NCBI GenBank assembly: GCA_903913285.1
Contig: CAIWKO010000060.1
Location: 55,898-119,897 of the forward strand
Direction: 5' to 3'
Source of the DNA: an uncultured Bacteroidales bacterium
Lineage (GTDB): Bacteria; Bacteroidota; Bacteroidia; Bacteroidales; CAIWKO01
DNA: 64,000 nucleotides
Below the pieces are notes generated by a model. That model saw nothing but the letters and a program-made list of their open reading frames with translations. It ran no database searches and had not been told where the DNA came from. Position 1 is the stretch's first letter, and each line of letters opens with the position of its first letter. Positions 5,260-59,222 of this stretch are shown here, piece by piece. The translations under genes were made by a program, and so were the position numbers.

Positions 5260-5552
5260 TAAAGTAAAATTGGAAGCAGCTAAAGTAAAATTGGAAGCTT
5301 TTAAAGTAAAATTGGAAGCAATTAAAGTAAAATTGGAAGCCAAAAAAGCATTCTTGAACGAGTTAATACTAAAATTGGATGCATCTAAAGTAAAATTGGA
5401 AGGCACTGAAGTAAAATTGTAAGGCACTAAAGTGAAATTGCAACCTCATATGTATCCTGGAACACTGCTAAAGTCTTCTGGAAAGGTGCTAAAGTAAAAT
5501 TGCAGGCTGCTAAAGTAAAATTGCAAGCCGCTCACGCATTCTTGGAAGGCGG
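5260..5552 (+). repeat. 21-bp tandem array, consensus TAAAGTAAAATTGGAAGCNNN (~14 units)
   Basis: Units at 5260, 5281, 5302, 5323 ... 5490, 5511. One 20-nt unit (5449-5468) and several diverged units. Confidence 0.9.
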
Positions 5553-5708
5553 TTACGTGAGTCATATTTTTGACTCAAGTAATATTTCTTCCCAAAAAAG
5601 TAAAATTGCAACCAAAAATACCATTCCCGGAGCAAAACCTCAAAAACATCTCTGTGTCCCAATTTACTTGCTACCTGTTACCTTTTACCAGTTACCTGTT
5701 ACTTTAGT

Positions 5709-25002: not shown

Positions 25003-26010
25003 CTATTGAAAAATTCTCTTTTCTATCTTTTTCAGTACAACAAGGTCATCAATTGTCTTTTTTAAATAGCTTACCATTTCTGGAATTTGTTCTTCATTTT
25101 CAATTATAAACTTAGCTAATTTTTCATAACGACCAATTGTCAAAACACCATCCGAGTCAACGGTCTCCCAATTTTTTAAATTTTTCTTTAATACATTAAA
25201 CAAGTTATCTGTTTCTTTATACTTATCTGAAATTGTCAATTCAATTTCTGTTCCAATGTAAACTTCTTCATTAGACCACCAAAAGAATCCTATATTTACA
25301 AATGACTTAAATTTGCTTTTAACATCTACATAATGATAGGTAGCATAAGAAAATTCTCTTTCAATTTTAGTACTTCTTGATGATTGCTTAGCCAATCCGC
25401 AAATTTTATTTTCATAATATTCAGTGATCCCATCAATAACTTCATTCATTTTGCTTATTGTATCAGTTATTTTGGTTAATACGTTTAGGTCGGAATAATT
25501 AAAATTTTTTGAGTCTGCCATGTTTTCTTCTTTTAAAAATGATTTGAATTCGTTCGTTAATTGGGTGTTTTTTTTATCTATTATTTGAAAAATATCAGCC
25601 CACTTCATCAAGTGGAAAAGAACTGATTTGTCATATATTTCTTTTAAGTTGTAATATTTTGTTAGGTATACAAGATGTCTCTTTGTGATAGATTTACTTA
25701 GTAAAATCTTTTTATAGTCGTCCAGTTGGTTTGGTCTCTCAAAGTGTTCTATTTTACATTCAATTAAAATACAAGTTTTTTTTGTCGGAATATTTATTTC
25801 AATATCAGGTCTGCCAAACTCATAGCTTTTTTGTGTTTTGATAGTCGTTTCGCTGTCAGCCTGCAAGTCAAGTTTTTCAAGAAAGTTGTCACGAAATAAT
25901 TTGTCTGCCTGTAAACAATTTGCGAAAATTTCTATTAAGAAATTTTCTTTGGAATTGGTGTTTTCTCTTTCCCTGTATGAATATATTTTACTAAAAACTG
26001 ATTCTGTCAT
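25003..26010 (-). CDS. PD-(D/E)XK nuclease superfamily protein
   Basis: EN...E helix, then GRPDIEI...ILIECKI....RPNQLDDY and VYLT, typical of PDDEXK_4-like proteins; AT-rich. Confidence 0.8.
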   Translation of the reverse strand: MTESVFSKIYSYRERENTNSKENFLIEIFANCLQADKLFRDNFLEKLDLQADSETTIKTQKSYEFGRPDIEINIPTKKTCILIECKIEHFERPNQLDDYKKILLSKSITKRHLVYLTKYYNLKEIYDKSVLFHLMKWADIFQIIDKKNTQLTNEFKSFLKEENMADSKNFNYSDLNVLTKITDTISKMNEVIDGITEYYENKICGLAKQSSRSTKIEREFSYATYHYVDVKSKFKSFVNIGFFWWSNEEVYIGTEIELTISDKYKETDNLFNVLKKNLKNWETVDSDGVLTIGRYEKLAKFIIENEEQIPEMVSYLKKTIDDLVVLKKIEKRIFQ

Positions 26011-26157
26011 TTTTTTATAATTGATGTCGTTTCAAAAAGCAGCGTACTATTTAAAATCCTTTTTACAAAACTTGGTCAATTGGTGTAGTTACAAACTACA
26101 ATTACAAAATGCGAAGCTTGAAACTTTGCATAACTTAAAATATTACCTGTTAACTTA

Positions 26158-27381
26158 TTAATAAAGTTGAACAGTTTTCTGCCCATATTTGATATCAGTA
26201 TAGTTGTCAGATATTTTTTTAATTACCAAATATTCAAATACTTCTAAAGACTTCCTGATTAGGGGAATAATAGTTTGAAAGTCGTTTGTATTCGATAATG
26301 AAATATGATATTCACTTTCTTTATTATGAACAATACAGCATCTTAATCCATAAATAAACTCTGCTACTTTGCGTATTGAACTTGGACTGAAACCATCAAC
26401 AATTTTTTTGTCTCTTAAAAAAGTTATTTCATTCGCATTAGCCACTGGTGTCAATGCAGGCTTTATTATTGATACAAGGTCAGGTGTGAATATTTTCGAA
26501 AAATTTCTGATAAAAGATTCTTTTTCTCCCTTTTTCATACTTTCTGCTGAATTAATAAATTCTCTCACAAAAATTCTACTTGACCCAACGCGATTTACTA
26601 AATCAACTAAATAAACCCGATAGACTAAATATTCAAAAGTGTGATAAAGTCTTAAAAAACGATTCAAGATGTCTGGAGATTGATTTAGTTCGTTTATTAC
26701 ATCATAAATATCAAAATACTGTTCATAATCTTTAGTTGAATCAAAAGATAAACCTGGATAAATTAATGTTTTTGAATACTTTAGATCACTTTGAAGAAGT
26801 ATCGACTTGGCATCATTTAAAAAAGACAAATAAATAAATGGGTAGTGTTTGTCTTCATCAAAAGGAATAGCTGACTTGTTAATTACTAGTCCTTTATTTA
26901 AATCTAGGTTTGAAATAATGTCGAAGAATTCATTTATAAAAACATTATTTACAATTGAGTAGCATCTTTCTAAATACTCTTCAATTTGCTTCCAAATTAT
27001 TTCGAAATTTGGCTTTGATAAATCAATTATGTCGCCACTATCAAAAAGCGTTGATGACGATACAAATCCATAGTCAGTGTTTGAATATGCGAACCTTCTG
27101 TTTCTATTTTGAAATTTAGGTTGGGAAAAATCAATCTTTGTTGGATTTCCGATTATTGTGTAAGGTAAACTTAAAAATCCACCTTTATTATCTTTCCTTA
27201 TTTGTTCAAGTGATTTTATGAATTTCTGAAAAATAGGAGGTGGGTTCAATAGTAATAACCATTGTAGCCCTTCTTCAAGATTATCATCAATATCAATAAT
27301 ATCAATTAGGTCTTGATCATTAAATCCCAAGTAAGTATTTAAAGATAGGATGACCTTTGATAAAAGTTCGTTACCTGTCAT
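26158..27381 (-). CDS. HEPN-like (RxxxxH) domain protein, putative defence effector
   Basis: RFLRLYHTFEY upstream helix and IYGLRCCIVHNKESEYH (R-x4-H); AT-rich; starts 6 bp after the upstream gene's stop. Confidence 0.65.
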   Translation of the reverse strand: MTGNELLSKVILSLNTYLGFNDQDLIDIIDIDDNLEEGLQWLLLLNPPPIFQKFIKSLEQIRKDNKGGFLSLPYTIIGNPTKIDFSQPKFQNRNRRFAYSNTDYGFVSSSTLFDSGDIIDLSKPNFEIIWKQIEEYLERCYSIVNNVFINEFFDIISNLDLNKGLVINKSAIPFDEDKHYPFIYLSFLNDAKSILLQSDLKYSKTLIYPGLSFDSTKDYEQYFDIYDVINELNQSPDILNRFLRLYHTFEYLVYRVYLVDLVNRVGSSRIFVREFINSAESMKKGEKESFIRNFSKIFTPDLVSIIKPALTPVANANEITFLRDKKIVDGFSPSSIRKVAEFIYGLRCCIVHNKESEYHISLSNTNDFQTIIPLIRKSLEVFEYLVIKKISDNYTDIKYGQKTVQLY

Positions 27382-27387
27382 AGCTAT

Positions 27388-28620
27388 CTATTTTTCTCTT
27401 ATTTGATTAAATATTTCACTCCAAGTCAATTGCTTTTCTTCGAGCAATGATTGAGTATATTCCATTACAACTTTTCTAATGAAAGAACCAATATTTACCG
27501 ACCTACTGGAAAGCACATTATATTCGTTCGTGAACTGAGTTAAGTTAAGTCCATTTTTTGTAATAGAATTATTCAACTTTTCGAAAACATCATTAGTTTG
27601 ACTGAAAACATTTTCTGGGTCTTGGAGGTTAATTTTCCTACCAATTGCTGCGAATATACCGCTAAGAGAAGTATCCTTAGAAAACCATTCTTTCCCTTTC
27701 GCGTCATTTATAGAAATCAATTTATCCAGCTCAAATAACTTATTTAAAAACAAGTCTAGGTATTCTTTACTAAAAACTATATCATATACTTTCTCTGGTG
27801 TTTCTTCACTATCAATAAATTCGTTTTCAATTAATTTGTCAGTTGATACTCTTAGTGGTTTGCCTTCCACTAGCGATTGTAGAGCTACTATAACGGAAGA
27901 AAACATAAACTGACCTAATTCTCTGATTCCCCTTTTTATATCGTTAGCATTTATATTTTTTTCTCTAAAAAGTTGTATTGGGGTATCAGAATTATTTATT
28001 GTTTCAAAATAATGAAGAAATAACAGCTCAAATTGGTGGGTCTTTGATACAGATTTTTGTCCTGCATTTAAGAGTAGCATTTTTTGAATTACTTCTTTCT
28101 CATTTAACCCAGTCCAAATGGTAAAATAAACATCATAATTGCTAAATCTTGATGGTATTTTCTCTATTTCATTTGTTTCAATTAATGATTTTATTAAACG
28201 AGTTGACATGACTCCTGAATCAAAAAATAATGGATTTATTTCCTTCAACTCTTTTGCAAAAGTTCTATAATCAGATTTTGTCTTAGAATATTGCTTTGAT
28301 GTGGCGAGATGAGCCCATAAGCGGAAAGACCGTTGAAGTCCATCTAAAATTTCAGTTTCAGACAAATCAAAAGAGACTTGATTATAATCTATTTCATTAA
28401 GTTTTGATTTTTTATATGTAAGTGTAATAGTAGGGATAGGGTCGCCTATCTGTATTGTTGAGTAGAGTTTGTCTAAATATTGATTTTTGACAATCCTTCT
28501 CTGAATTGCATACTCGTAGAAATCTATTTTCAAACCTTCTAAGTAATCTATTAATTTCCCTTTACATAGATACCAAGTCCTATGTTGGATTTCCTTTTTG
28601 TCTAGAATTTCTATTTCCAT
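27388..28620 (-). CDS. DGQHR/DndB/DUF262-like (ParB-superfamily) domain protein
   Basis: IQRRIV, GDPIPTITL, EILDGLQRS and MLLLNAGQKSV motifs. Confidence 0.7.
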   Translation of the reverse strand: MEIEILDKKEIQHRTWYLCKGKLIDYLEGLKIDFYEYAIQRRIVKNQYLDKLYSTIQIGDPIPTITLTYKKSKLNEIDYNQVSFDLSETEILDGLQRSFRLWAHLATSKQYSKTKSDYRTFAKELKEINPLFFDSGVMSTRLIKSLIETNEIEKIPSRFSNYDVYFTIWTGLNEKEVIQKMLLLNAGQKSVSKTHQFELLFLHYFETINNSDTPIQLFREKNINANDIKRGIRELGQFMFSSVIVALQSLVEGKPLRVSTDKLIENEFIDSEETPEKVYDIVFSKEYLDLFLNKLFELDKLISINDAKGKEWFSKDTSLSGIFAAIGRKINLQDPENVFSQTNDVFEKLNNSITKNGLNLTQFTNEYNVLSSRSVNIGSFIRKVVMEYTQSLLEEKQLTWSEIFNQIREK

Positions 28621-28886
28621 TTCGAATAGTTATTGATTTTTAGCTTGTAGGCAAAATTTGTATGAAACATTGATATAATTTTTATTCTACCTATTCAGTA
28701 GGTGCAATCCATGTATCCATTGGCCAAGTTTCCAAACTTCCCACAAAAATATTCTTTAGTTTCCAATCACATACAAATTTCACCTCAAATATATAAATTT
28801 ATTCGATTGAAAATTATTTTTTCAAAAAAAATCATATTATTTTCTCAAAAAAAAACAACGATTAAAGCTTTAAAAAACATAAAAGT

Positions 28887-29138
28887 CAAATTGAAAACAA
28901 CGATTATCAAAATCTGAACAATGGATTACAAAATCTGAACAACGACAATCAAAATTATGACTATGGATGACAAAAATATGACAATGGATGACAAAATCTG
29001 AACAACGACAATCAAAATTATGACAATGGATGACAAAATTATGACAATGGATGACAAAATGGAGTCAACGACGATCAAATTCTGAACAACGACAATCAAA
29101 ATTACGACAATGGATGACAAAATGGAGTCAACGACAAT
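28887..29138 (+). repeat. 21-bp tandem array A1 (CAAAAT-NNNNN-CAA-YGRNNAN type), 12 units
   Basis: Units such as CAAAATCTGAACAACGACAAT, CAAAATTATGACAATGGATGA and CAAAATGGAGTCAACGACAAT in exact 21-bp register. Confidence 0.92.
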
Positions 29139-29277
29139 CAAAATGTAAAAAATCAAAACAAAAAAACAAATCAAGTTGTTAATTATCAATATAATAATAA
29201 ATAAGTCAACCAATTTACTTCTTAACAAATTAACCAACGAACTCAAAAATCACACCCCTAAAACAAAAATAACAACA

Positions 29278-29550
29278 CACTACCTCGTCCGAACGACACT
29301 TCACCTCGTCGGAACGACTACGTTTCTCGTCCGAACGACACTATTCCTTCTCCGGACGACTCTGTTCCTCTTCCGAACCGCACTATTCCTTCTCCGGACA
29401 ACACTATCCCTTCTCCGGACGACACTATCCCTTCTCCGGACGACACTATCCCTCTTCCGGACGACACTATCCCTTCTCCGAACGACTCTGTCACTCGTCC
29501 GAACGACTCTGCACCTTTTTCAGACTACATCAAACCTTTTTCAAACAACA
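29278..29550 (+). repeat. 21-bp tandem array B1 (CTATCCCTTCTCCGGACGACA type), ~13 units
   Basis: Continuous 21-bp register; translates as LSLLRTT heptads in ORF 29176..29628. Confidence 0.92.
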
Positions 29551-29839
29551 TCAAACATCTTCCGGGTCATCCTTTATATCACCTCGCTCATAGCTTTTTA
29601 TCCCGTAACCACCGGAATACATCTCTAAACTCTTATCATTTTCTGTAGCCCTTCGCCGAATATTCTGCCCGATTATCTTATTCCTTATCATCTTGCCGTT
29701 TCTTAACACACTATAGGATTGTTTTTATAAAAAAACATCCCTGGCTATCATCTTTTAAAAATAATTAAAAAACTTTTCACCGCTTAAATCGTTGTTTTTA
29801 TGATTATTCACTACTGTGCGAAACAGATTAATGAAATTA

Positions 29840-29884
29840 TTTTAGTACTTTGTATTGCATAGTACTAAAAATGTATTATCTTTG
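29840..29884 (+). promoter_or_regulatory. Bacteroidota primary-sigma promoter overlapped by a palindromic putative PadR operator
   Basis: TTG (29855-57)-N19-TATCTTTG (29877-84); dyad TTTTAGTACT-TTGTATTGCAT-AGTACTAAAA covers the -33 element. Confidence 0.7.
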
Positions 29885-30121
29885 TCCCCGAAATGATAAA
29901 ACGATCTTCAGATCAAAATTTTAAAATGGCTCTAAGTTTAATTTTTAATAGTGTTGGTAATAAAGTGAAACGTGTTGAGAATCATCTGCGCCTTATCTCA
30001 GAGGATAGGATGATTTTCAGCGGCTTCACCCTTTAGGGAAGGGGAAAAAAGACGTTGAAAATCAATTAAAAGTCATTTGGAAAGAACAACAAACAACAAA
30101 CGACAAACAAACAACAACAAA

Positions 30122-46295: not shown

Positions 46296-46566
46296 GATTT
46301 GCTTATAAATTACTTAACAACCAAAAATTATCAATTAGAACTTGGTTATAACAAAGATATAATTTTTTCAAAAACAAATCCTTAATAATTTATTATTTGG
46401 GTTGAGGTAACATGATTTTAATTAATTGCACGCAACGGGATACGCAAGCGAGCAGTGTGAAGTATGTTTTAATGTCAACGACAATAGCTTTCAGAAAAAC
46501 ATAAATCATTTTACAATAACAATTTTGAATCAAAAGCAACCATAAAAACTAAAAAAACGCTAAAGT

Positions 46567-46650
46567 CAAATTTAGAACAACGAAGTACAAAATCTGAACA
46601 ACCAAGTACAAAATATCGACAATGAAGTACAAAATGAAGTCAACGACAAT
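46567..46650 (+). repeat. 21-bp tandem array A2 (4 units), homologous to array A1
   Basis: CAAATTTAGAACAACGAAGTA, CAAAATCTGAACAACCAAGTA, CAAAATATCGACAATGAAGTA, CAAAATGAAGTCAACGACAAT. Confidence 0.85.
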
Positions 46651-46864
46651 TAAAATAAAAAAAATCAAAACAAAAAAAATCAATTAAATCACTAATTATC
46701 TACTTAATAACACCATTCAACAAATTAACCTACAATTCACAAGTCATGGCACGATTCTCTGTCGTATTACTATTTTTACAACACGAATATCGTGATTATC
46801 CTATCGTACATCATCCAAATTACTATTTACATCCAAACTCTAAAGCCTTTTGTCAATATTTATT

Positions 46865-47305
46865 CATCGTGAACGAGAAATATGACATCGTGAATAAGAA
46901 TTACGACATCGTGAATAAGAAATATAACATCGTGAATAAGAAATATGACATCGTGAATAAGAAATATGACATCGTGAATAAGAATTACGACATCGTGAAT
47001 AAGAAATATAACATCGTGAATAAGAATTATAACATCGTGAATAAGAATTATGACATCGTGAATAAGAAATACGACTGTGTGAATAAGAAATACGACTTCG
47101 TGAATAAGAATTATGACATCGTGAATAAAAATTACGACATCGTGAATAAGAAATATGACATCGTGAATAAGAAATATGACATCGTGAATAAGAAATATAA
47201 CATCGTGAATAAGAATTATAACATCGTGAATAAGAATTATAACATCGTGAATAAGAATTATGACATCGTGAATAAGAAATACGACTGTGTGAATAAGAAA
47301 TACGA
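46865..47305 (+). repeat. 21-bp tandem array B2 (CATCGTGAATAAGAAWTAYRA), 21 units
   Basis: Uninterrupted 21-bp register; translates as IVNKKYD heptads. Confidence 0.97.
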
Positions 47306-47519
47306 CTTCGACGATTTTAGTTACTATTACAACCCCATTCGGCAGCAAGCTCCGCCTCCTTTGGCTTATTTATGCCATCCGTGGCTTGTGGCTACAAATA
47401 AACAAACCCGGCATCAAATTCCTTACTTTCAGGAAAATAATATTCAATTTTGTGCGTTTTCTAAAAGAATAAACGCCATAACTTTTATTAAATAATTGCC
47501 AAATCAAAACTATACTCCG

Positions 47520-56070: not shown

Positions 56071-56172
56071 CCTTTTAGTCTTTTAGGTGTGTAGACTTTT
56101 AGGTAATAGGTAACAAGTAATAGTTATAGTCTTCGGTCTTCCAACTTCTAACTCCTAACTTTTAACTTTAGG

Positions 56173-56283
56173 CACTTTAGGCACCTGCCCGACTGAAGCC
56201 GTTCAGGCGGGCTTTAAGTACTTTAGTTCACTTTAGGCACCTGCCCGACTGAAGCCGTTCAGGCGGGCTTTAAGTACTTTAGT
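56173..56283. repeat. 56-bp tandem duplication with REP-like hairpin CCTGCCCGACTGAAGCCGTTCAGGCGGG, embedded in heptamer repeats
   Basis: 56173-56228 and 56229-56283 are identical over 55 bp; flanked by ACTTTAG-type heptamers. Confidence 0.9.
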
Positions 56284-56292
56284 CACTTTAGT

Positions 56293-57790: not shown

Positions 57791-58151
57791 TTCGCACGAG
57801 TTGGGAAAGGGTTCGCACGGCCAAGGAAAGGGTTCGCACGGCCGGGGAAAGGGTTCGCACGGCCAGAGAAATGGTTCGCACGGCCGGGGAAATGGTTCGC
57901 TCACGGGACGATATGGTTCGCTCGTAGAACGATACCGTTCGCACGACCGGGGAAAGGGTTCGCACGACTCAGGAAAGGGTTCGCACGACTTGGGAGACCT
58001 CCGCACGACCAAGGAAAGAGTTCGCACGACTGAGGAAAGGGTTCGCACGGCCAAGGAAAGGGTTCGCACGAGTTGGGATGCCTCCGCACGACCGGGGAAA
58101 GGGTTCGCACGGCTGAGGAAAGGGTTCGCACGAGCCGGGAAAGGGTTCGCA
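57791..58151 (+). repeat. 21-bp tandem array TTCGCACG-N5-GGAAAGGG, 17 units plus a partial
   Basis: Conserved 16-nt core GGAAAGGGTTCGCACG with a variable pentamer (AGTTG, GCCAA, GCCGG, GCCAG, ACCGG, ACTCA, ACTTG, ACCAA, ACTGA, GCTGA, AGCCG); two 20-nt units. Confidence 0.96.
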
Positions 58152-58253
58152 GGGTTGGATATATACTTTGATTGGATGGAGGGATGTAGTTCTTGTTTAT
58201 TGAATGCTAATTATTTATAAACAATATTATTCACTTTAAAAAAAAATAAAGTT

Positions 58254-59222
58254 ATGGAAGATCAAAACATTTATTGGAGCGAAATGGAAAAAAGAATTGT
58301 TGGGTTGAAAAGTAACCCATTGTATTCGGCAGAAATAACCGGAACGGTTGCAACATTGGATTTTTTTACACGAGCTGAAGGCTATTTTAACGATAAGGTG
58401 AGCTGGCAACAGAAATTGGAAAAATCGTCGAAAGCGTATACGAAAGCAGGCGAGGCAAAGAAAGAGGAAGCCGCCCAGACTTTTAGTATTACGGCATCGG
58501 TAATGAAATCGTATGGCGAAAAAATTGGTGATGCCGATTTGATAGGCCTGAAATTGCTGACATTTTCGAAATTGCATAAGGAAAGTGTTACTGCACAAAT
58601 TGCTGATAATAATTATATTTTGGGTTTGATAGATGCTAATAAAGTTGCACTGGCAGATTATAAGATAGATGCAGCTTTTACGGCCAAGCTTGTTACGCTG
58701 AACAAGGATCTTGACCTGCAGACAAAATTGCCGCTGGACGTGGTGAAGCAACATGCCAATGATAAGGTTCAGTATGAGGATATGGAGAATACTTCGAAGA
58801 AATTTTATGATAAGGAGATGGACCCTTATATGAAAATTTATAAAATTACAGATATGGGTTTGTTTTTGGCTTATCTGGCGGCGCGGAAGGTGCGGCATCA
58901 TCATTTGAAACGAAAAGCGGTTGTGCCAGACCCGGAAACTATTACGGGAATACTGGAGTTGATGCTGCTGTTCAAAGCATCGATGGACCCGGCAGCAGGA
59001 GCCAGTTATGTGGTTACGGCACTGGGTATTTCGGATACGACGGATGAAGACGGGGAAGGCTATAATGACGAGTTGAAGCCCGGAACGTATCATGGAAAGA
59101 TTTCGATGGACGGCTATAAGGATATTGAGTTTGATTTTACGATAGAAGCAGGAAAAACTACAGCGTTGCAGTTTTTGCTGGAAGTGGCTAATGTGGCTCC
59201 GAGCGGAACGCCGGGGAGTTGA
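58254..59222 (+). CDS. Hypothetical protein: predicted alpha-helical N-terminal region plus C-terminal carboxypeptidase-regulatory-like (Ig/prealbumin-type) domain
   Basis: No signal peptide; amphipathic helical first ~215 aa ending FLAYLAARKV; C-terminal P..GA....TTDEDG....LKPGTY...IS.DGYKD......IEAGKTT...F.L. Confidence 0.75.
   Translation: MEDQNIYWSEMEKRIVGLKSNPLYSAEITGTVATLDFFTRAEGYFNDKVSWQQKLEKSSKAYTKAGEAKKEEAAQTFSITASVMKSYGEKIGDADLIGLKLLTFSKLHKESVTAQIADNNYILGLIDANKVALADYKIDAAFTAKLVTLNKDLDLQTKLPLDVVKQHANDKVQYEDMENTSKKFYDKEMDPYMKIYKITDMGLFLAYLAARKVRHHHLKRKAVVPDPETITGILELMLLFKASMDPAAGASYVVTALGISDTTDEDGEGYNDELKPGTYHGKISMDGYKDIEFDFTIEAGKTTALQFLLEVANVAPSGTPGS

What the first reader, a model, noticed from the sequence alone, without database searches (positions are those of the whole stretch)
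28860..29550. Bipartite non-coding element present twice: array A + conserved linker + interchangeable array B
Seen: 28860-29250 and 46545-46740 are homologous. Both begin AAAAAAC..AAAGTCAAATT and share similar first and last units (last: CAAAATG.AGTCAACGACAAT). Both continue AAAAATCAAAACAAAAAAA, TAATTATC and AACAAATTAACC, but they differ in unit number (12 vs 4). Each is then followed, 140-215 bp after array A, by a second 21-bp array of unrelated sequence (CTATCCCTTCTCCGGACGACA vs CATCGTGAATAAGAAATATGA). Both copies lie in divergent intergenic regions upstream of minus-strand accessory genes (defence cassette; T9SS cargo block). No transposase or terminal IRs are present. Inference: a dispersed modular element (non-autonomous mobile unit, regulatory platform or structured RNA) marking gene-acquisition hotspots.
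Basis: partly seen in the sequence, partly recalled or inferred. Interest (0 to 1): 0.78.

Follow-up and report, generated by a model that had tools for sequence, protein, structure and literature searches.

The report
Orphan copies of a repeat-array gene leader
The two look-alike stretches are gene-less copies of a repeat-filled leader that normally sits in front of one gene of a large family of unknown function, and the second arrays beside them are unrelated neighbours, so there is no two-part element.

Summary
The genome holds four copies.

The other two copies have no second array. B1 and B2 are unrelated to each other and to A. B1 has its own relatives elsewhere without A.

The oldest copy (C45, shared with sister genome G017) abuts the start codon of a 405-aa gene of a multi-copy family, FAM1. 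Genome-wide, 21-bp arrays of gene-specific sequence lie just upstream of four paralogous families. Within 400 bp upstream, 35 of their 51 genes have one, against 163 of all 3139 called genes. The same holds in other genomes: 22 of 25 FAM1 loci and 21 of 27 FAM3 loci.

So "array A + linker" is a leader module of such a cassette, and the window copies are orphans lying in strain-specific DNA.

What the arrays do is not shown. I favour a copy-number-variable cis element of contingency-like genes.

Earlier scan notes on other pieces of this genome had recorded the pervasive 21-bp arrays, but not the link to gene families.

The parts
28800..28885 (+). Left arm of module copy 1: decayed array units, A-rich
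   Evidence: Aligns with the left arms of the other three copies; sequence read.
28886..29150 (+). Array A, copy 1: about 12.6 units of 21 bp, with a higher-order 42/63-bp period
   Evidence: TRF. Not open in any + frame (read). The minus strand carries five perfect TAnnTTTG boxes.
29151..29282 (+). Right arm ('linker'), copy 1: A-rich, unstructured
   Evidence: 0 of 500 shuffles reach the score; MFE -3.4 kcal/mol, z -0.45.
29283..29575 (+). Array B1: an independent 21-bp array with decayed edges
   Evidence: TRF. Its relatives are at C13:30173-30426 (upstream of a FAM1 gene) and C69:4332-4721, neither next to array A.
46500..46562 (+). Left arm of module copy 2
   Evidence: sequence read.
46563..46648 (+). 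Array A, copy 2: about 4 units
   Evidence: TRF. A contig of run X6 'goes back 42' at 46623->46582, which is one more 42-bp unit in another sample.
46649..46745 (+). Right arm ('linker'), copy 2
   Evidence: MFE 0 kcal/mol.
46865..47310 (+). Array B2: 21.2 x 21 bp, an independent array
   Evidence: TRF. The only blastn matches in the genome are to itself. The 249-aa ORF through it is a by-product of the 21-bp period: Pfam gives only sub-threshold hits.
57791..58151 (+). Array of the window's own intact cassette: 17 x 21 bp, with a different unit
   Evidence: TRF. It ends 102 bp before the ATG of the gene below.
58254..59222 (+). FAM1-like gene (322 aa): helical N-terminal part plus a CarboxypepD_reg-like C-terminal domain
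   Evidence: Pfam PF13620 at E 3.8e-7; blastp to FAM1 at 1.3e-21.
26158..28620 (-). DzbB (26158-27381) and DzbA (27388-28620), Dazbog defence genes in AT-rich DNA. These are context, not part of the module.
   Evidence: PADLOC; GC 0.28-0.31.
29834..29886 (+). Conserved palindrome and -7 box ahead of the PadR-PspC genes: the point where synteny with congeners resumes
   Evidence: blastn matches of 52-132 bp at 75-98% identity (98% in the closest genome) in 5 of 5 congeners; TATCTTTG box at 29877.

Best explanation
The two homologous stretches are gene-less ('orphan') copies of a non-coding leader module. The module is a 42-bp (2 x 21) minisatellite with decayed edges plus an A-rich, unstructured right arm of about 100-140 bp.

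The founding copy (contig C45:141893-142311) runs from just behind a Bacteroidetes-type -7 box to 12 bp before the start codon of a 405-aa gene. That gene belongs to a multi-copy family, FAM1, built of a helical bundle plus two transthyretin/CnaB-like beta-sandwiches.

In this genome and its kin, nearly every member of four families carries such a module: a 21-bp array of its own sequence, usually 7-14 units, ending about 80-190 bp before the ATG in most FAM1, FAM3 and FAM6 cassettes and further out in many FAM2 ones (median 177 bp over the 41 cassettes). The families are FAM1 and FAM2 (homologous to each other), FAM3 (three helices plus an Fn3 domain) and FAM6.

Arrays B1 and B2 are separate members of the same genome-wide class that happen to share long accessory spacers with the orphans. 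There is no A-linker-B unit.

Shown: the homology, the copy census, the absence of B at two copies, and the array-gene association within and across genomes.

Inferred (about 0.3 on its own): the array lies in the 5' leader, or just upstream of the promoter, and acts in cis as a copy-number-variable dial on expression of contingency-like genes. The orphans are then partial duplicates or remnants left in strain-variable DNA.
For: Four copies exist and homology is limited to 450 bp or less. The C45 copy abuts the ATG and is conserved in G017 at 89-91% identity.

In G000, arrays lie within 400 bp upstream of 13 of 18 FAM1, 9 of 17 FAM2, 8 of 11 FAM3 and 5 of 5 FAM6 genes, against 163 of 3139 genes overall. 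Of the 60 families with 4 or more members that were tested, no other reaches P < 0.09. Several of the members without a listed array lie at contig ends.

In other genomes, 22 of 25 FAM1 loci and 21 of 27 FAM3 loci have a 21/42/63-bp array within 700 bp upstream, nearly all with different units. These include 3 of 3 loci in G023 and 1 of 2 in G031, which belong to other families of the order.

FAM1, FAM3 and FAM6 occur in the same 9 of 18 genomes of the genus. Arrays of 3 or more units run at 2.5 and 7.7 per Mb in samples of two genomes without these families, against 52.6 per Mb in all of G000.

A TAnnTTTG box lies within 200 bp upstream of the array in 8 of 15 FAM1 cassettes, 7 of them at 89-163 bp.

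The arrays are non-coding. 205 of 210 are outside long ORFs. In 48 cassette arrays, open frames are no commoner in the gene's direction than in reverse, and 11 have no open frame in the gene's direction.

A 42-bp copy-number difference appears in another sample.

B is independent of A, and arrays commonly neighbour each other (51 of 210).
Against: No expression data: no RNA run was listed, so the transcript start and any effect of copy number are untested.

Only 55 of 210 arrays sit in such cassettes. Arrays also occur in convergent spacers (32 of 179 placed arrays), where a promoter or leader role makes no sense.

A perfect -7 box upstream of the array is missing in 7 of 15 FAM1 cassettes and in most FAM2 and FAM3 cassettes.

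A simple dial does not explain why three unrelated protein families share one period. It also does not explain why array length stays near 12 units, or why gene-linked arrays resemble orphan arrays (16 or more of 21) more than they resemble the arrays of their closest paralogues (13 of 21 at 92% and at 86% protein identity).

No remnant of a FAM gene lies beside the three orphans (best tblastn E 0.13), so 'remnant of a cassette' is not shown for them.

The counts across genomes come from close kin and are not independent. The contigs sampled in the two family-bearing genomes were ones I knew from family hits, which inflates their array density.
Confidence: 0.6

Rival explanations
1. Cognate recognition. 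Each FAM protein, or its leader RNA, recognises its own 21-bp unit. The array before the gene is an autoregulatory platform, and orphan arrays with the same unit (here the two window copies and C18) are its target sites at other loci. The two-helical-turn period lets the protein line up on one face of the DNA, and sequences diverge fast to avoid cross-talk between paralogues.
For: 18 of 38 unit-sharing array families pair one gene-linked array with one or more orphans, and only 2 join two gene-linked arrays. The arrays of the closest paralogues (92% and 86% protein identity) share only 13 of 21. In 8 of 25 gene-linked/orphan pairs the arrays match but neither flank does. The families and long arrays occur together across genomes. 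The idea of a protein that needs a fixed repeat size to polymerise on DNA is in print for this class of repeats (PMC8161180, section 4.1, read).
Against: The predicted folds give no sign of DNA binding. They are a helical bundle with no significant match, plus transthyretin/CnaB-like or Fn3 beta-sandwiches, which are typical of surface proteins. Three unrelated families would all have to bind arrays. The orphans of family A are absent from the sister genome G017 and lie in accessory DNA, which fits recent spread better than a conserved regulon. 17 of 25 pairs share at least one flank, so they are copies by descent.
Confidence: 0.15
2. Neutral or selfish minisatellites. The 21-bp arrays have no function. 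They persist and homogenise by unequal exchange, travel with whatever DNA is duplicated or transferred, and gather in long, tolerant spacers. The tie to four gene families only reflects descent of each family from an ancestor that happened to carry an array.
For: Arrays occur in all kinds of spacer: 96 tandem, 51 divergent, 32 convergent. 155 of 210 are not next to a FAM gene. The extent of flank homology between copies is irregular: 8 pairs share no flank, 10 share one and 7 share both. A segmental duplication with diverged arrays is seen on C10. The orphans are species-specific.
Against: Array position and size (about 7-14 units, mostly 80-190 bp from the ATG in three of the four families) are kept across paralogues of 30-45% protein identity. 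They are kept in three unrelated families and in other families of the order, while the sequence turns over completely. Loss should be easy, yet 22 of 25 and 21 of 27 loci keep an array.
Confidence: 0.2
3. One reading: a bipartite, non-autonomous mobile unit or regulatory platform made of array A, a conserved linker and an interchangeable array B, which marks gene-acquisition hotspots. A BrickBuilt-like MITE is the nearest known version.
For: Both window copies are followed by a second array. All three orphan copies lie in strain-variable DNA. At copy 1 a 26-nt imperfect inverted repeat brackets A + linker + B1, and its right arm lies 35 bp before the point where synteny resumes. BrickBuilt of P. 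gingivalis has leader + 23-nt minisatellite + tail, 19 copies, and is intergenic (PMC4596501, abstract and outline read).
Against: 2 of 4 copies, and the G017 orthologue, have no B. B1's relatives lack A. The gap between A and B differs (133 vs 217 bp) and is not homologous beyond the linker. There is no inverted repeat at copy 2. Both arms are A-rich on the same strand, so they cannot form terminal inverted repeats. No transposase or integrase was found in the flanks.
Confidence: 0.05

Closest known systems
Bacterial non-coding tandem repeats of constant size (20-21 nt) and variable sequence (Subirana & Messeguer; PMC8161180: abstract, found passages and section 4.1 read; PMC6749651: abstract and outline read)
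   Same: One genome holds many arrays with a single period (349 of 1002 TRF rows have period 21; 287 arrays). The units are unrelated (152 families among 210 arrays). The arrays are non-coding. Function is unknown.
   Different: Those papers describe the class in Bacillus, Paenibacillus and other bacteria. In the parts I read they propose nucleoid proteins or small RNAs and name no partner genes. Here about a quarter of the arrays (55 of 210) sit directly upstream of four specific gene families, and this arrangement is conserved across genomes.
BrickBuilt, a minisatellite inside a MITE of Porphyromonas gingivalis (Klein et al. 2015, PMC4596501; abstract and outline read)
   Same: A Bacteroidota genome; leader + tandem array of about 2 helical turns (23 nt) + tail; multi-copy; always intergenic; promoter-like elements inside (copy 1 has five TAnnTTTG boxes on its minus strand).
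   Different: BrickBuilt has small inverted-repeat ends and one shared unit in 19 copies. The module here has no terminal inverted repeats, only 4 copies, and is one of many modules with different units, each tied to a gene.
Repeat tracts in the promoter or leader of contingency genes, such as the 7-nt repeats before hmw1A/hmw2A of Haemophilus influenzae (recalled from my own knowledge and from scan note e1-2710690; no paper read here)
   Same: Tandem repeats lie between promoter and start codon of members of a variable protein family. Copy number differs between strains.
   Different: Units of 21 bp in arrays of about 250 bp; each gene has its own sequence; three unrelated protein families; gene-less copies elsewhere. 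No effect on expression has been shown.
Iterons and plasmid centromere repeats with their cognate binding proteins, such as parC/ParR (recalled, not tested)
   Same: Direct repeats of about two helical turns, variable between systems, placed upstream of the gene of the protein that would bind them.
   Different: Chromosomal; about 50 loci per genome; no replication or partition genes; the adjacent proteins show no known DNA-binding fold.

Membership tests
Constant-size (20-21 nt), variable-sequence tandem repeats | One repeat length dominates the genome's tandem repeats | tested here: met
   349 of 1002 TRF rows have period 21, with 82 more at 42 and 51 at 63. They merge to 287 arrays totalling 44 kb.
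Constant-size (20-21 nt), variable-sequence tandem repeats | No sequence conservation between arrays | tested here: met
   210 arrays of 3 or more units fall into 152 unit families at 16 or more of 21 identical. A, B1 and B2 share 9-11 of 21.
Constant-size (20-21 nt), variable-sequence tandem repeats | Non-coding | tested here: met
   205 of 210 are outside long ORFs. Open frames show no bias toward the gene's direction.
BrickBuilt-type MITE carrying a minisatellite | Conserved leader and tail around the array, multi-copy, intergenic | tested here: met
   The left arm (about 60 bp) and right arm (about 100-140 bp) are shared by 4 copies, all intergenic.
BrickBuilt-type MITE carrying a minisatellite | Small terminal inverted repeats | tested here: not met
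   No inverted pair at copy 2. At copy 1 the only long-range pair (I2) brackets A + B1, not the module; the other pair (I1) lies wholly upstream of it. Both arms are A-rich on the same strand.
BrickBuilt-type MITE carrying a minisatellite | Target-site duplication or an empty site in a relative | tested here: inconclusive
   The orphans lie inside larger species-specific segments, so no clean empty site could be aligned.
Promoter or leader repeat tract of contingency genes | Repeats lie between promoter and start codon | tested here: inconclusive
   A TAnnTTTG box lies upstream of the array in 8 of 15 FAM1 cassettes but in few FAM2 or FAM3 cassettes. No transcript data.
Promoter or leader repeat tract of contingency genes | Copy number varies between strains | tested here: inconclusive
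   One contig of run X6 has one more 42-bp unit at copy 2. Short-read contigs break at the arrays.
Promoter or leader repeat tract of contingency genes | Copy number changes expression | not testable with these tools
   Needs reporter fusions or RNA data.
Iteron or centromere-like protein-binding array | The adjacent gene encodes the protein that binds the repeats | not testable with these tools
   The fold searches cover the beta-sandwich parts well and the helical parts barely.
Known structured RNA families (Rfam) | Match to a covariance model, or folding better than shuffles | tested here: not met
   0 matches at gathering score in the window and 0 at E <= 1 in both loci. The + strand folds at z -0.45, +1.12 and +0.59.

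The most novel reading that the evidence does not exclude
The 21-bp arrays and the adjacent FAM1/2, FAM3 and FAM6 genes form one system of a kind not yet described. It would consist of about 50 dispersed 'array + gene' cassettes per genome, in which each array is a specificity tag matched by orphan arrays elsewhere, through protein-array or RNA-RNA recognition or as the substrate of cassette spread. The window's A copies would then be such partner sites, next to a Dazbog defence island and a T9SS block. This would give the unexplained 'constant size, variable sequence' repeats of bacteria their first gene partners.
Probability: 0.25. Interest if true: 0.85.

Novelty: new variant of a known kind. 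Interest (0 to 1): 0.62.

Why it matters
Tandem repeats of fixed length (20-21 nt) and unrelated sequence have been reported in many bacteria. In the parts of the papers I read, no function and no partner genes are named (PMC8161180).

Here the class gets a handle that can be tested. In one Bacteroidales genus, and in at least two other families of the order, such arrays are the regular upstream fixture of a few multi-copy gene families of unknown function. Those families and the long arrays are present or absent together.

That turns a descriptive puzzle into experiments: map the transcript starts, vary the unit number, and test whether the proteins bind their own arrays.

For this finding it also settles the reading. 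There is no bipartite mobile element. There are orphan leader modules lying beside unrelated arrays in accessory DNA.

I found no paper linking such arrays to gene families. The searches were made, plus the passages read. The first paper of that series (reference 3 of PMC8161180) was not in the library, and supplementary tables were closed, so a statement there could have escaped me.

Tried and rejected
Coding arrays. The ORFs through B2 (249 aa), B1 (150 aa) and A (106 aa, minus strand) are low-complexity products of a period divisible by three. Copy 1 of array A has stops in all + frames (read). Cassette arrays show no bias toward the gene's direction.

Structured RNA. Rfam gave nothing and folding gave nothing consistent. 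One minus-strand fold of the C45 linker reached z -2.4, but the window copies did not share it.

Origin of 21-bp units from 7-bp repeats. Self-match at lag 7 is only weakly raised over 195 units (z 2.2).

Relation of B to A or of B1 to B2: none. An in-phase blastn match of A1 to B2 (62% over 322 bp) is what AT-rich periodic sequences give and was not counted.

FAM gene remnants beside the orphans: none (best E 0.13).

RNA evidence: no RNA holder was listed. The four DNA runs that were laid are short-read contigs that break at the arrays, so their gaps say nothing.

Empty-site analysis for the window's intact cassette: the right-hand neighbour is not syntenic in 4 of 5 congeners, so I dropped it.

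Function of the FAM proteins. Pfam finds only a CarboxypepD_reg-like domain in FAM1 and FAM2 and nothing in FAM3 and FAM6. NCBIfam finds none for the FAM1 gene. PHROGs gives none above noise. Fold searches name only the beta-sandwich domains. The helical part's best matches (Z 8.5-8.9, among them an S23-family four-helix bundle) are below the level that helical bundles reach by chance.

The 100%-identical 138-141-bp flanks shared by arrays at contig ends look like assembly overlaps next to a collapsed repeat. I did not follow them up.

Co-divergence of arrays with genes is significant only in FAM2 (r 0.47, 0 of 2000 permutations). FAM1 gives 105, FAM3 218 and FAM6 320 of 2000.
Full report
**1. 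The observation**

TRF places array A at window 28886-29150 (about 12.6 units of 21 bp, with stronger 42- and 63-bp periods) and at 46563-46635 (about 3.5 units). Second arrays lie at 29283-29507 (10.7 units, decaying on to about 29575) and at 46865-47310 (21.2 units) (sequences).

The two A loci match at 76% over 154 bp, E 5.6e-25 against the whole 4.0-Mb assembly. The unique right arm alone beats all 500 dinucleotide-preserving shuffles (score 34 against 22.4 +/- 2.9).

B1 and B2 share 10 of 21 positions at the best rotation and strand, which 65% of all array pairs reach. A against either B gives 9-11 of 21.

An imperfect 26-nt inverted repeat (28851-28876 / 29774-29799) brackets A + linker + B1 at the first locus only.

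**2. Census of the module**

The assembly (70 contigs; the window is C60:55898-119897) holds four copies: the two in the window, C45:141893-142311 (+) and C18:51430-50988 (-).

With 8 kb of flank on each side, homology between any two copies is confined to 450 bp or less. The shared stretch has three parts:
- about 60 bp of decayed units on the left;
- the array, which alternates two 21-mers;
- an A-rich right arm of about 100-140 bp, whose first part is again decayed units.

C45 and C18 are 85% identical over 446 bp. The window copies are 72-84% identical to them.

Neither C45 nor C18 has a second array. At C45 the right arm runs to 12 bp before an ATG. At C18 it is followed by a GC-rich hairpin and a convergent tRNA-Lys(CTT) gene.

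Among 40 related genomes, only G017 of the same genus has the module, at 89-91% identity. It is split over two contig ends and is the orthologue of the C45 locus, gene included. G005 has a weak, array-only match.

**3. Where the orphans lie**

Copy 1 sits inside a segment that congeners lack. Synteny with G017 and G009 stops at or before window 22781 and resumes at about 29834, a conserved palindrome and -7 box before PadR-PspC. The segment carries AT-rich Dazbog genes (DzbA E 5.6e-36, DzbB 4.2e-8).

Copy 2 lies between a T9SS-tailed protein gene and an outer-membrane beta-barrel gene. The beta-barrel gene was not found in 5 of 5 congeners. The next gene was found in 1 of 5, at 44% identity.

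The C18 copy lies at the tRNA-proximal edge of a region that differs between G000 and G017.

No integrase or transposase turned up in the 27 flanking proteins scanned.

**4. The background: 21-bp arrays everywhere**

Of 1002 TRF rows for the genome, 349 have period 21, 82 have period 42 and 51 have period 63. Merging gives 287 arrays of period 21. Taking periods 20-22 gives 311 arrays, of which 210 have three or more units.
- 205 of the 210 are outside long ORFs.
- They fall into 152 unit families.
- 51 of the 210 have another array within 300 bp.

A second array near A is therefore unremarkable. At that base rate, two or more of four copies with a neighbouring array is expected about one time in four (my arithmetic).

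Earlier agents of this scan had noted the pervasive 21-bp period on other pieces of this genome. They pointed to the 'constant size, variable sequence' repeats of Subirana and Messeguer and to BrickBuilt. I read the former (passages and section 4.1) and the abstract and outline of the latter.

B1 is not private to this locus. Arrays at C13:30173-30426 and C69:4332-4721 are its relatives (77% over 125 bp and 72% over 94 bp). Those two share a left flank with each other that the window copy lacks, and neither has array A nearby.

**5. What the module belongs to**

The ATG behind the C45 copy opens a 405-aa gene. Clustering the genes that flank arrays showed that this gene belongs to a paralogous family in which almost every member has an array just upstream.

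A systematic test covered all 60 families of four or more members and counted arrays within 400 bp upstream:

| Family | Typical size | Genes with an upstream array |
|---|---|---|
| FAM1 | about 300-405 aa | 13 of 18 |
| FAM2 | about 320 aa | 9 of 17 |
| FAM3 | about 205 aa | 8 of 11 |
| FAM6 | about 245 aa | 5 of 5 |
| All called genes | - | 163 of 3139 |

Fisher P ranges from 8.5e-14 to 3.6e-7 for these four, and the next family reaches only 0.09. The four families have one array downstream among them.

The neighbourhood maps show that several members without a listed array lie at contig ends, where assemblies break in arrays. They also show that the genes are dispersed singletons with unrelated neighbours.

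The arrays all differ in unit and are mostly 7-14 units long. They end about 80-190 bp before the ATG in most FAM1, FAM3 and FAM6 cassettes and further out in many FAM2 ones; the median over the 41 cassettes is 177 bp.

The window holds one intact cassette of this kind: array 57791-58151 and gene 58254-59222.

In all, 55 of the 210 arrays are in such cassettes.

**6. The association holds in other genomes**

FAM1 homologues (E <= 1e-10) occur in 9 of 18 genomes of the genus, counting G000, and in none of 23 genomes of other genera searched. Of 25 loci from eight other genomes with at least 250 bp of upstream sequence, 22 have a 21-, 42- or 63-bp array within 700 bp, nearly all with different units.

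FAM3 occurs in the same nine genomes and also in G023 and G031, which belong to other families of the order. There, 21 of 27 loci have an upstream array, including 3 of 3 in G023 and 1 of 2 in G031.

FAM6 occurs in exactly the same nine genomes. FAM2 is somewhat wider.

Densities of arrays with three or more units:

| Genome | Families present | Sequence examined | Arrays | Per Mb |
|---|---|---|---|---|
| G009 | no | 400 kb | 1 | 2.5 |
| G016 | no | 391 kb | 3 | 7.7 |
| G017 | yes | 392 kb | 11 | 28 |
| G013 | yes | 399 kb | 20 | 50 |
| G000 | yes | whole genome | 210 | 52.6 |

The contigs sampled in G013 and G017 were ones I knew from family hits, so those two figures are biased upward. The G000 figure is not. 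All of these genomes are kin, so the counts are not independent.

**7. The proteins**

FAM1 and FAM2 are homologous over their whole length (hhalign probability 99.5%). FAM3 and FAM6 show no detectable homology to them or to each other.

The FAM1 model (pLDDT 80.6) is a helical bundle (residues 1-203) followed by two transthyretin/CnaB-like sandwiches. The best match is Z 13.1, rmsd 1.5 A over 82 residues, to the transthyretin-like domain of carboxypeptidase D.

The FAM3 model (pLDDT 88.4) is three helices plus an Fn3 domain (Z 13.3, rmsd 1.7 A over 85 residues).

No library names a function.

**8. How it might work**

At C45 a perfect Bacteroidetes-type -7 box (TAGATTTG) lies 89 bp upstream of the array, and homology with the C18 copy begins just behind it. 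A TAnnTTTG box lies within 200 bp upstream of the array in 8 of 15 FAM1 cassettes, seven of them at 89-163 bp, but in few FAM2 or FAM3 cassettes. Two paralogues (C15, C53) share this box and the start of the leader.

I therefore infer that in FAM1 the array is transcribed within a long, unstructured 5' leader. The + strand of the right arm folds at 0 to -3.4 kcal/mol.

A contig from another sample has one more 42-bp unit at copy 2.

The simplest mechanism is a copy-number-variable cis element that tunes contingency-like genes, as known for shorter repeat tracts elsewhere (recalled, not read here). It leaves several things unexplained:
- arrays occur in convergent spacers (32 of 179 placed arrays);
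- unrelated protein families share the same period;
- array length stays near constant;
- 18 of 38 unit-sharing array families pair one gene-linked array with orphans, while only 2 join two gene-linked arrays, and the closest paralogues (92% and 86% protein identity) have arrays sharing just 13 of 21.

That last pattern would suit recognition between a gene-linked array and its orphans, or frequent ectopic conversion. But 17 of 25 such pairs share at least one flank, so they are copies by descent, and the extents of shared flank are irregular.

**9. Verdict**

The feature is real and non-random. It is not a bipartite element, not a structured RNA and not a MITE with inverted ends. It consists of two orphan copies of the leader module of a FAM1 gene, lying beside unrelated arrays of the same genome-wide class in accessory DNA.

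The repeat class itself is already described. The conserved coupling of such arrays to specific multi-copy gene families is, as far as my searches reach, not in print. That coupling is the part worth following up.

Noticed in passing
window 25003-28620: An AT-rich (GC 0.28-0.31) block of three minus-strand genes: DzbA (E 5.6e-36), DzbB (4.2e-8) and a PDC-S26-like protein (1.7e-9). This is a Dazbog defence system inside a segment that G017 and G009 lack.
   Followed up: partly
window 28851-28876 and 29774-29799: An imperfect 26-nt inverted repeat (85% complementary, 897 nt apart) brackets array A, the linker and array B1. Its right arm lies 35 bp before the point where synteny with congeners resumes. 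Copy 2 has nothing like it.
   Followed up: partly
window 28957-29104, minus strand: Array A of copy 1 carries five perfect Bacteroidetes-type -7 boxes (TAATTTTG or TATTTTTG), each with a TTG 27 nt upstream, all pointing toward the Dazbog genes. Two more boxes lie closer to the DzbA start (28793, 28751).
   Followed up: no
window 57791-59222: An intact 'array + gene' cassette: 17 units of 21 bp (TTCGCACGACCGGGGAAAGGG), then a 322-aa FAM1-like gene. Arrays with the same unit family, but with no shared flanks, lie at C6:29044, C67:52126 and C67:52376.
   Followed up: partly
genomes G000-G017: Three gene families without detectable mutual homology (FAM1, FAM3, FAM6) occur in exactly the same 9 of 18 genomes of the genus, each in several copies.
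   Followed up: partly
window 59267-59409 and 56165-56291: A 77-bp unit repeated 1.9 times just after the FAM1-like gene, and a 56-bp unit repeated 2.3 times that contains a GC-rich hairpin. These are other repeat types in the same neighbourhood.
   Followed up: no
window 5260-5702: Three further short 21-bp arrays (8.6, 2.4 and 1.9 units) in one spacer between an 839-aa gene and a 387-aa minus-strand gene.
   Followed up: no
contig ends of G000, e.g. C26:66694, C27:52843, C29:1-170, C29:12853, C4:128295, C5:42860: Flanks of six arrays with different units share identical 138-141-bp stretches at contig ends, in two groups: C26, C27 and two in C29 share one, C4 and C5 the other. This is probably assembly overlap into a collapsed multi-copy element next to the arrays.
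   Followed up: no
L002 7636-7860 (C18:50760-50985): The C18 orphan copy is followed by a GC-rich hairpin and a convergent tRNA-Lys(CTT) gene. The region beyond the tRNA differs between G000 and G017, and no integrase was seen.
   Followed up: partly
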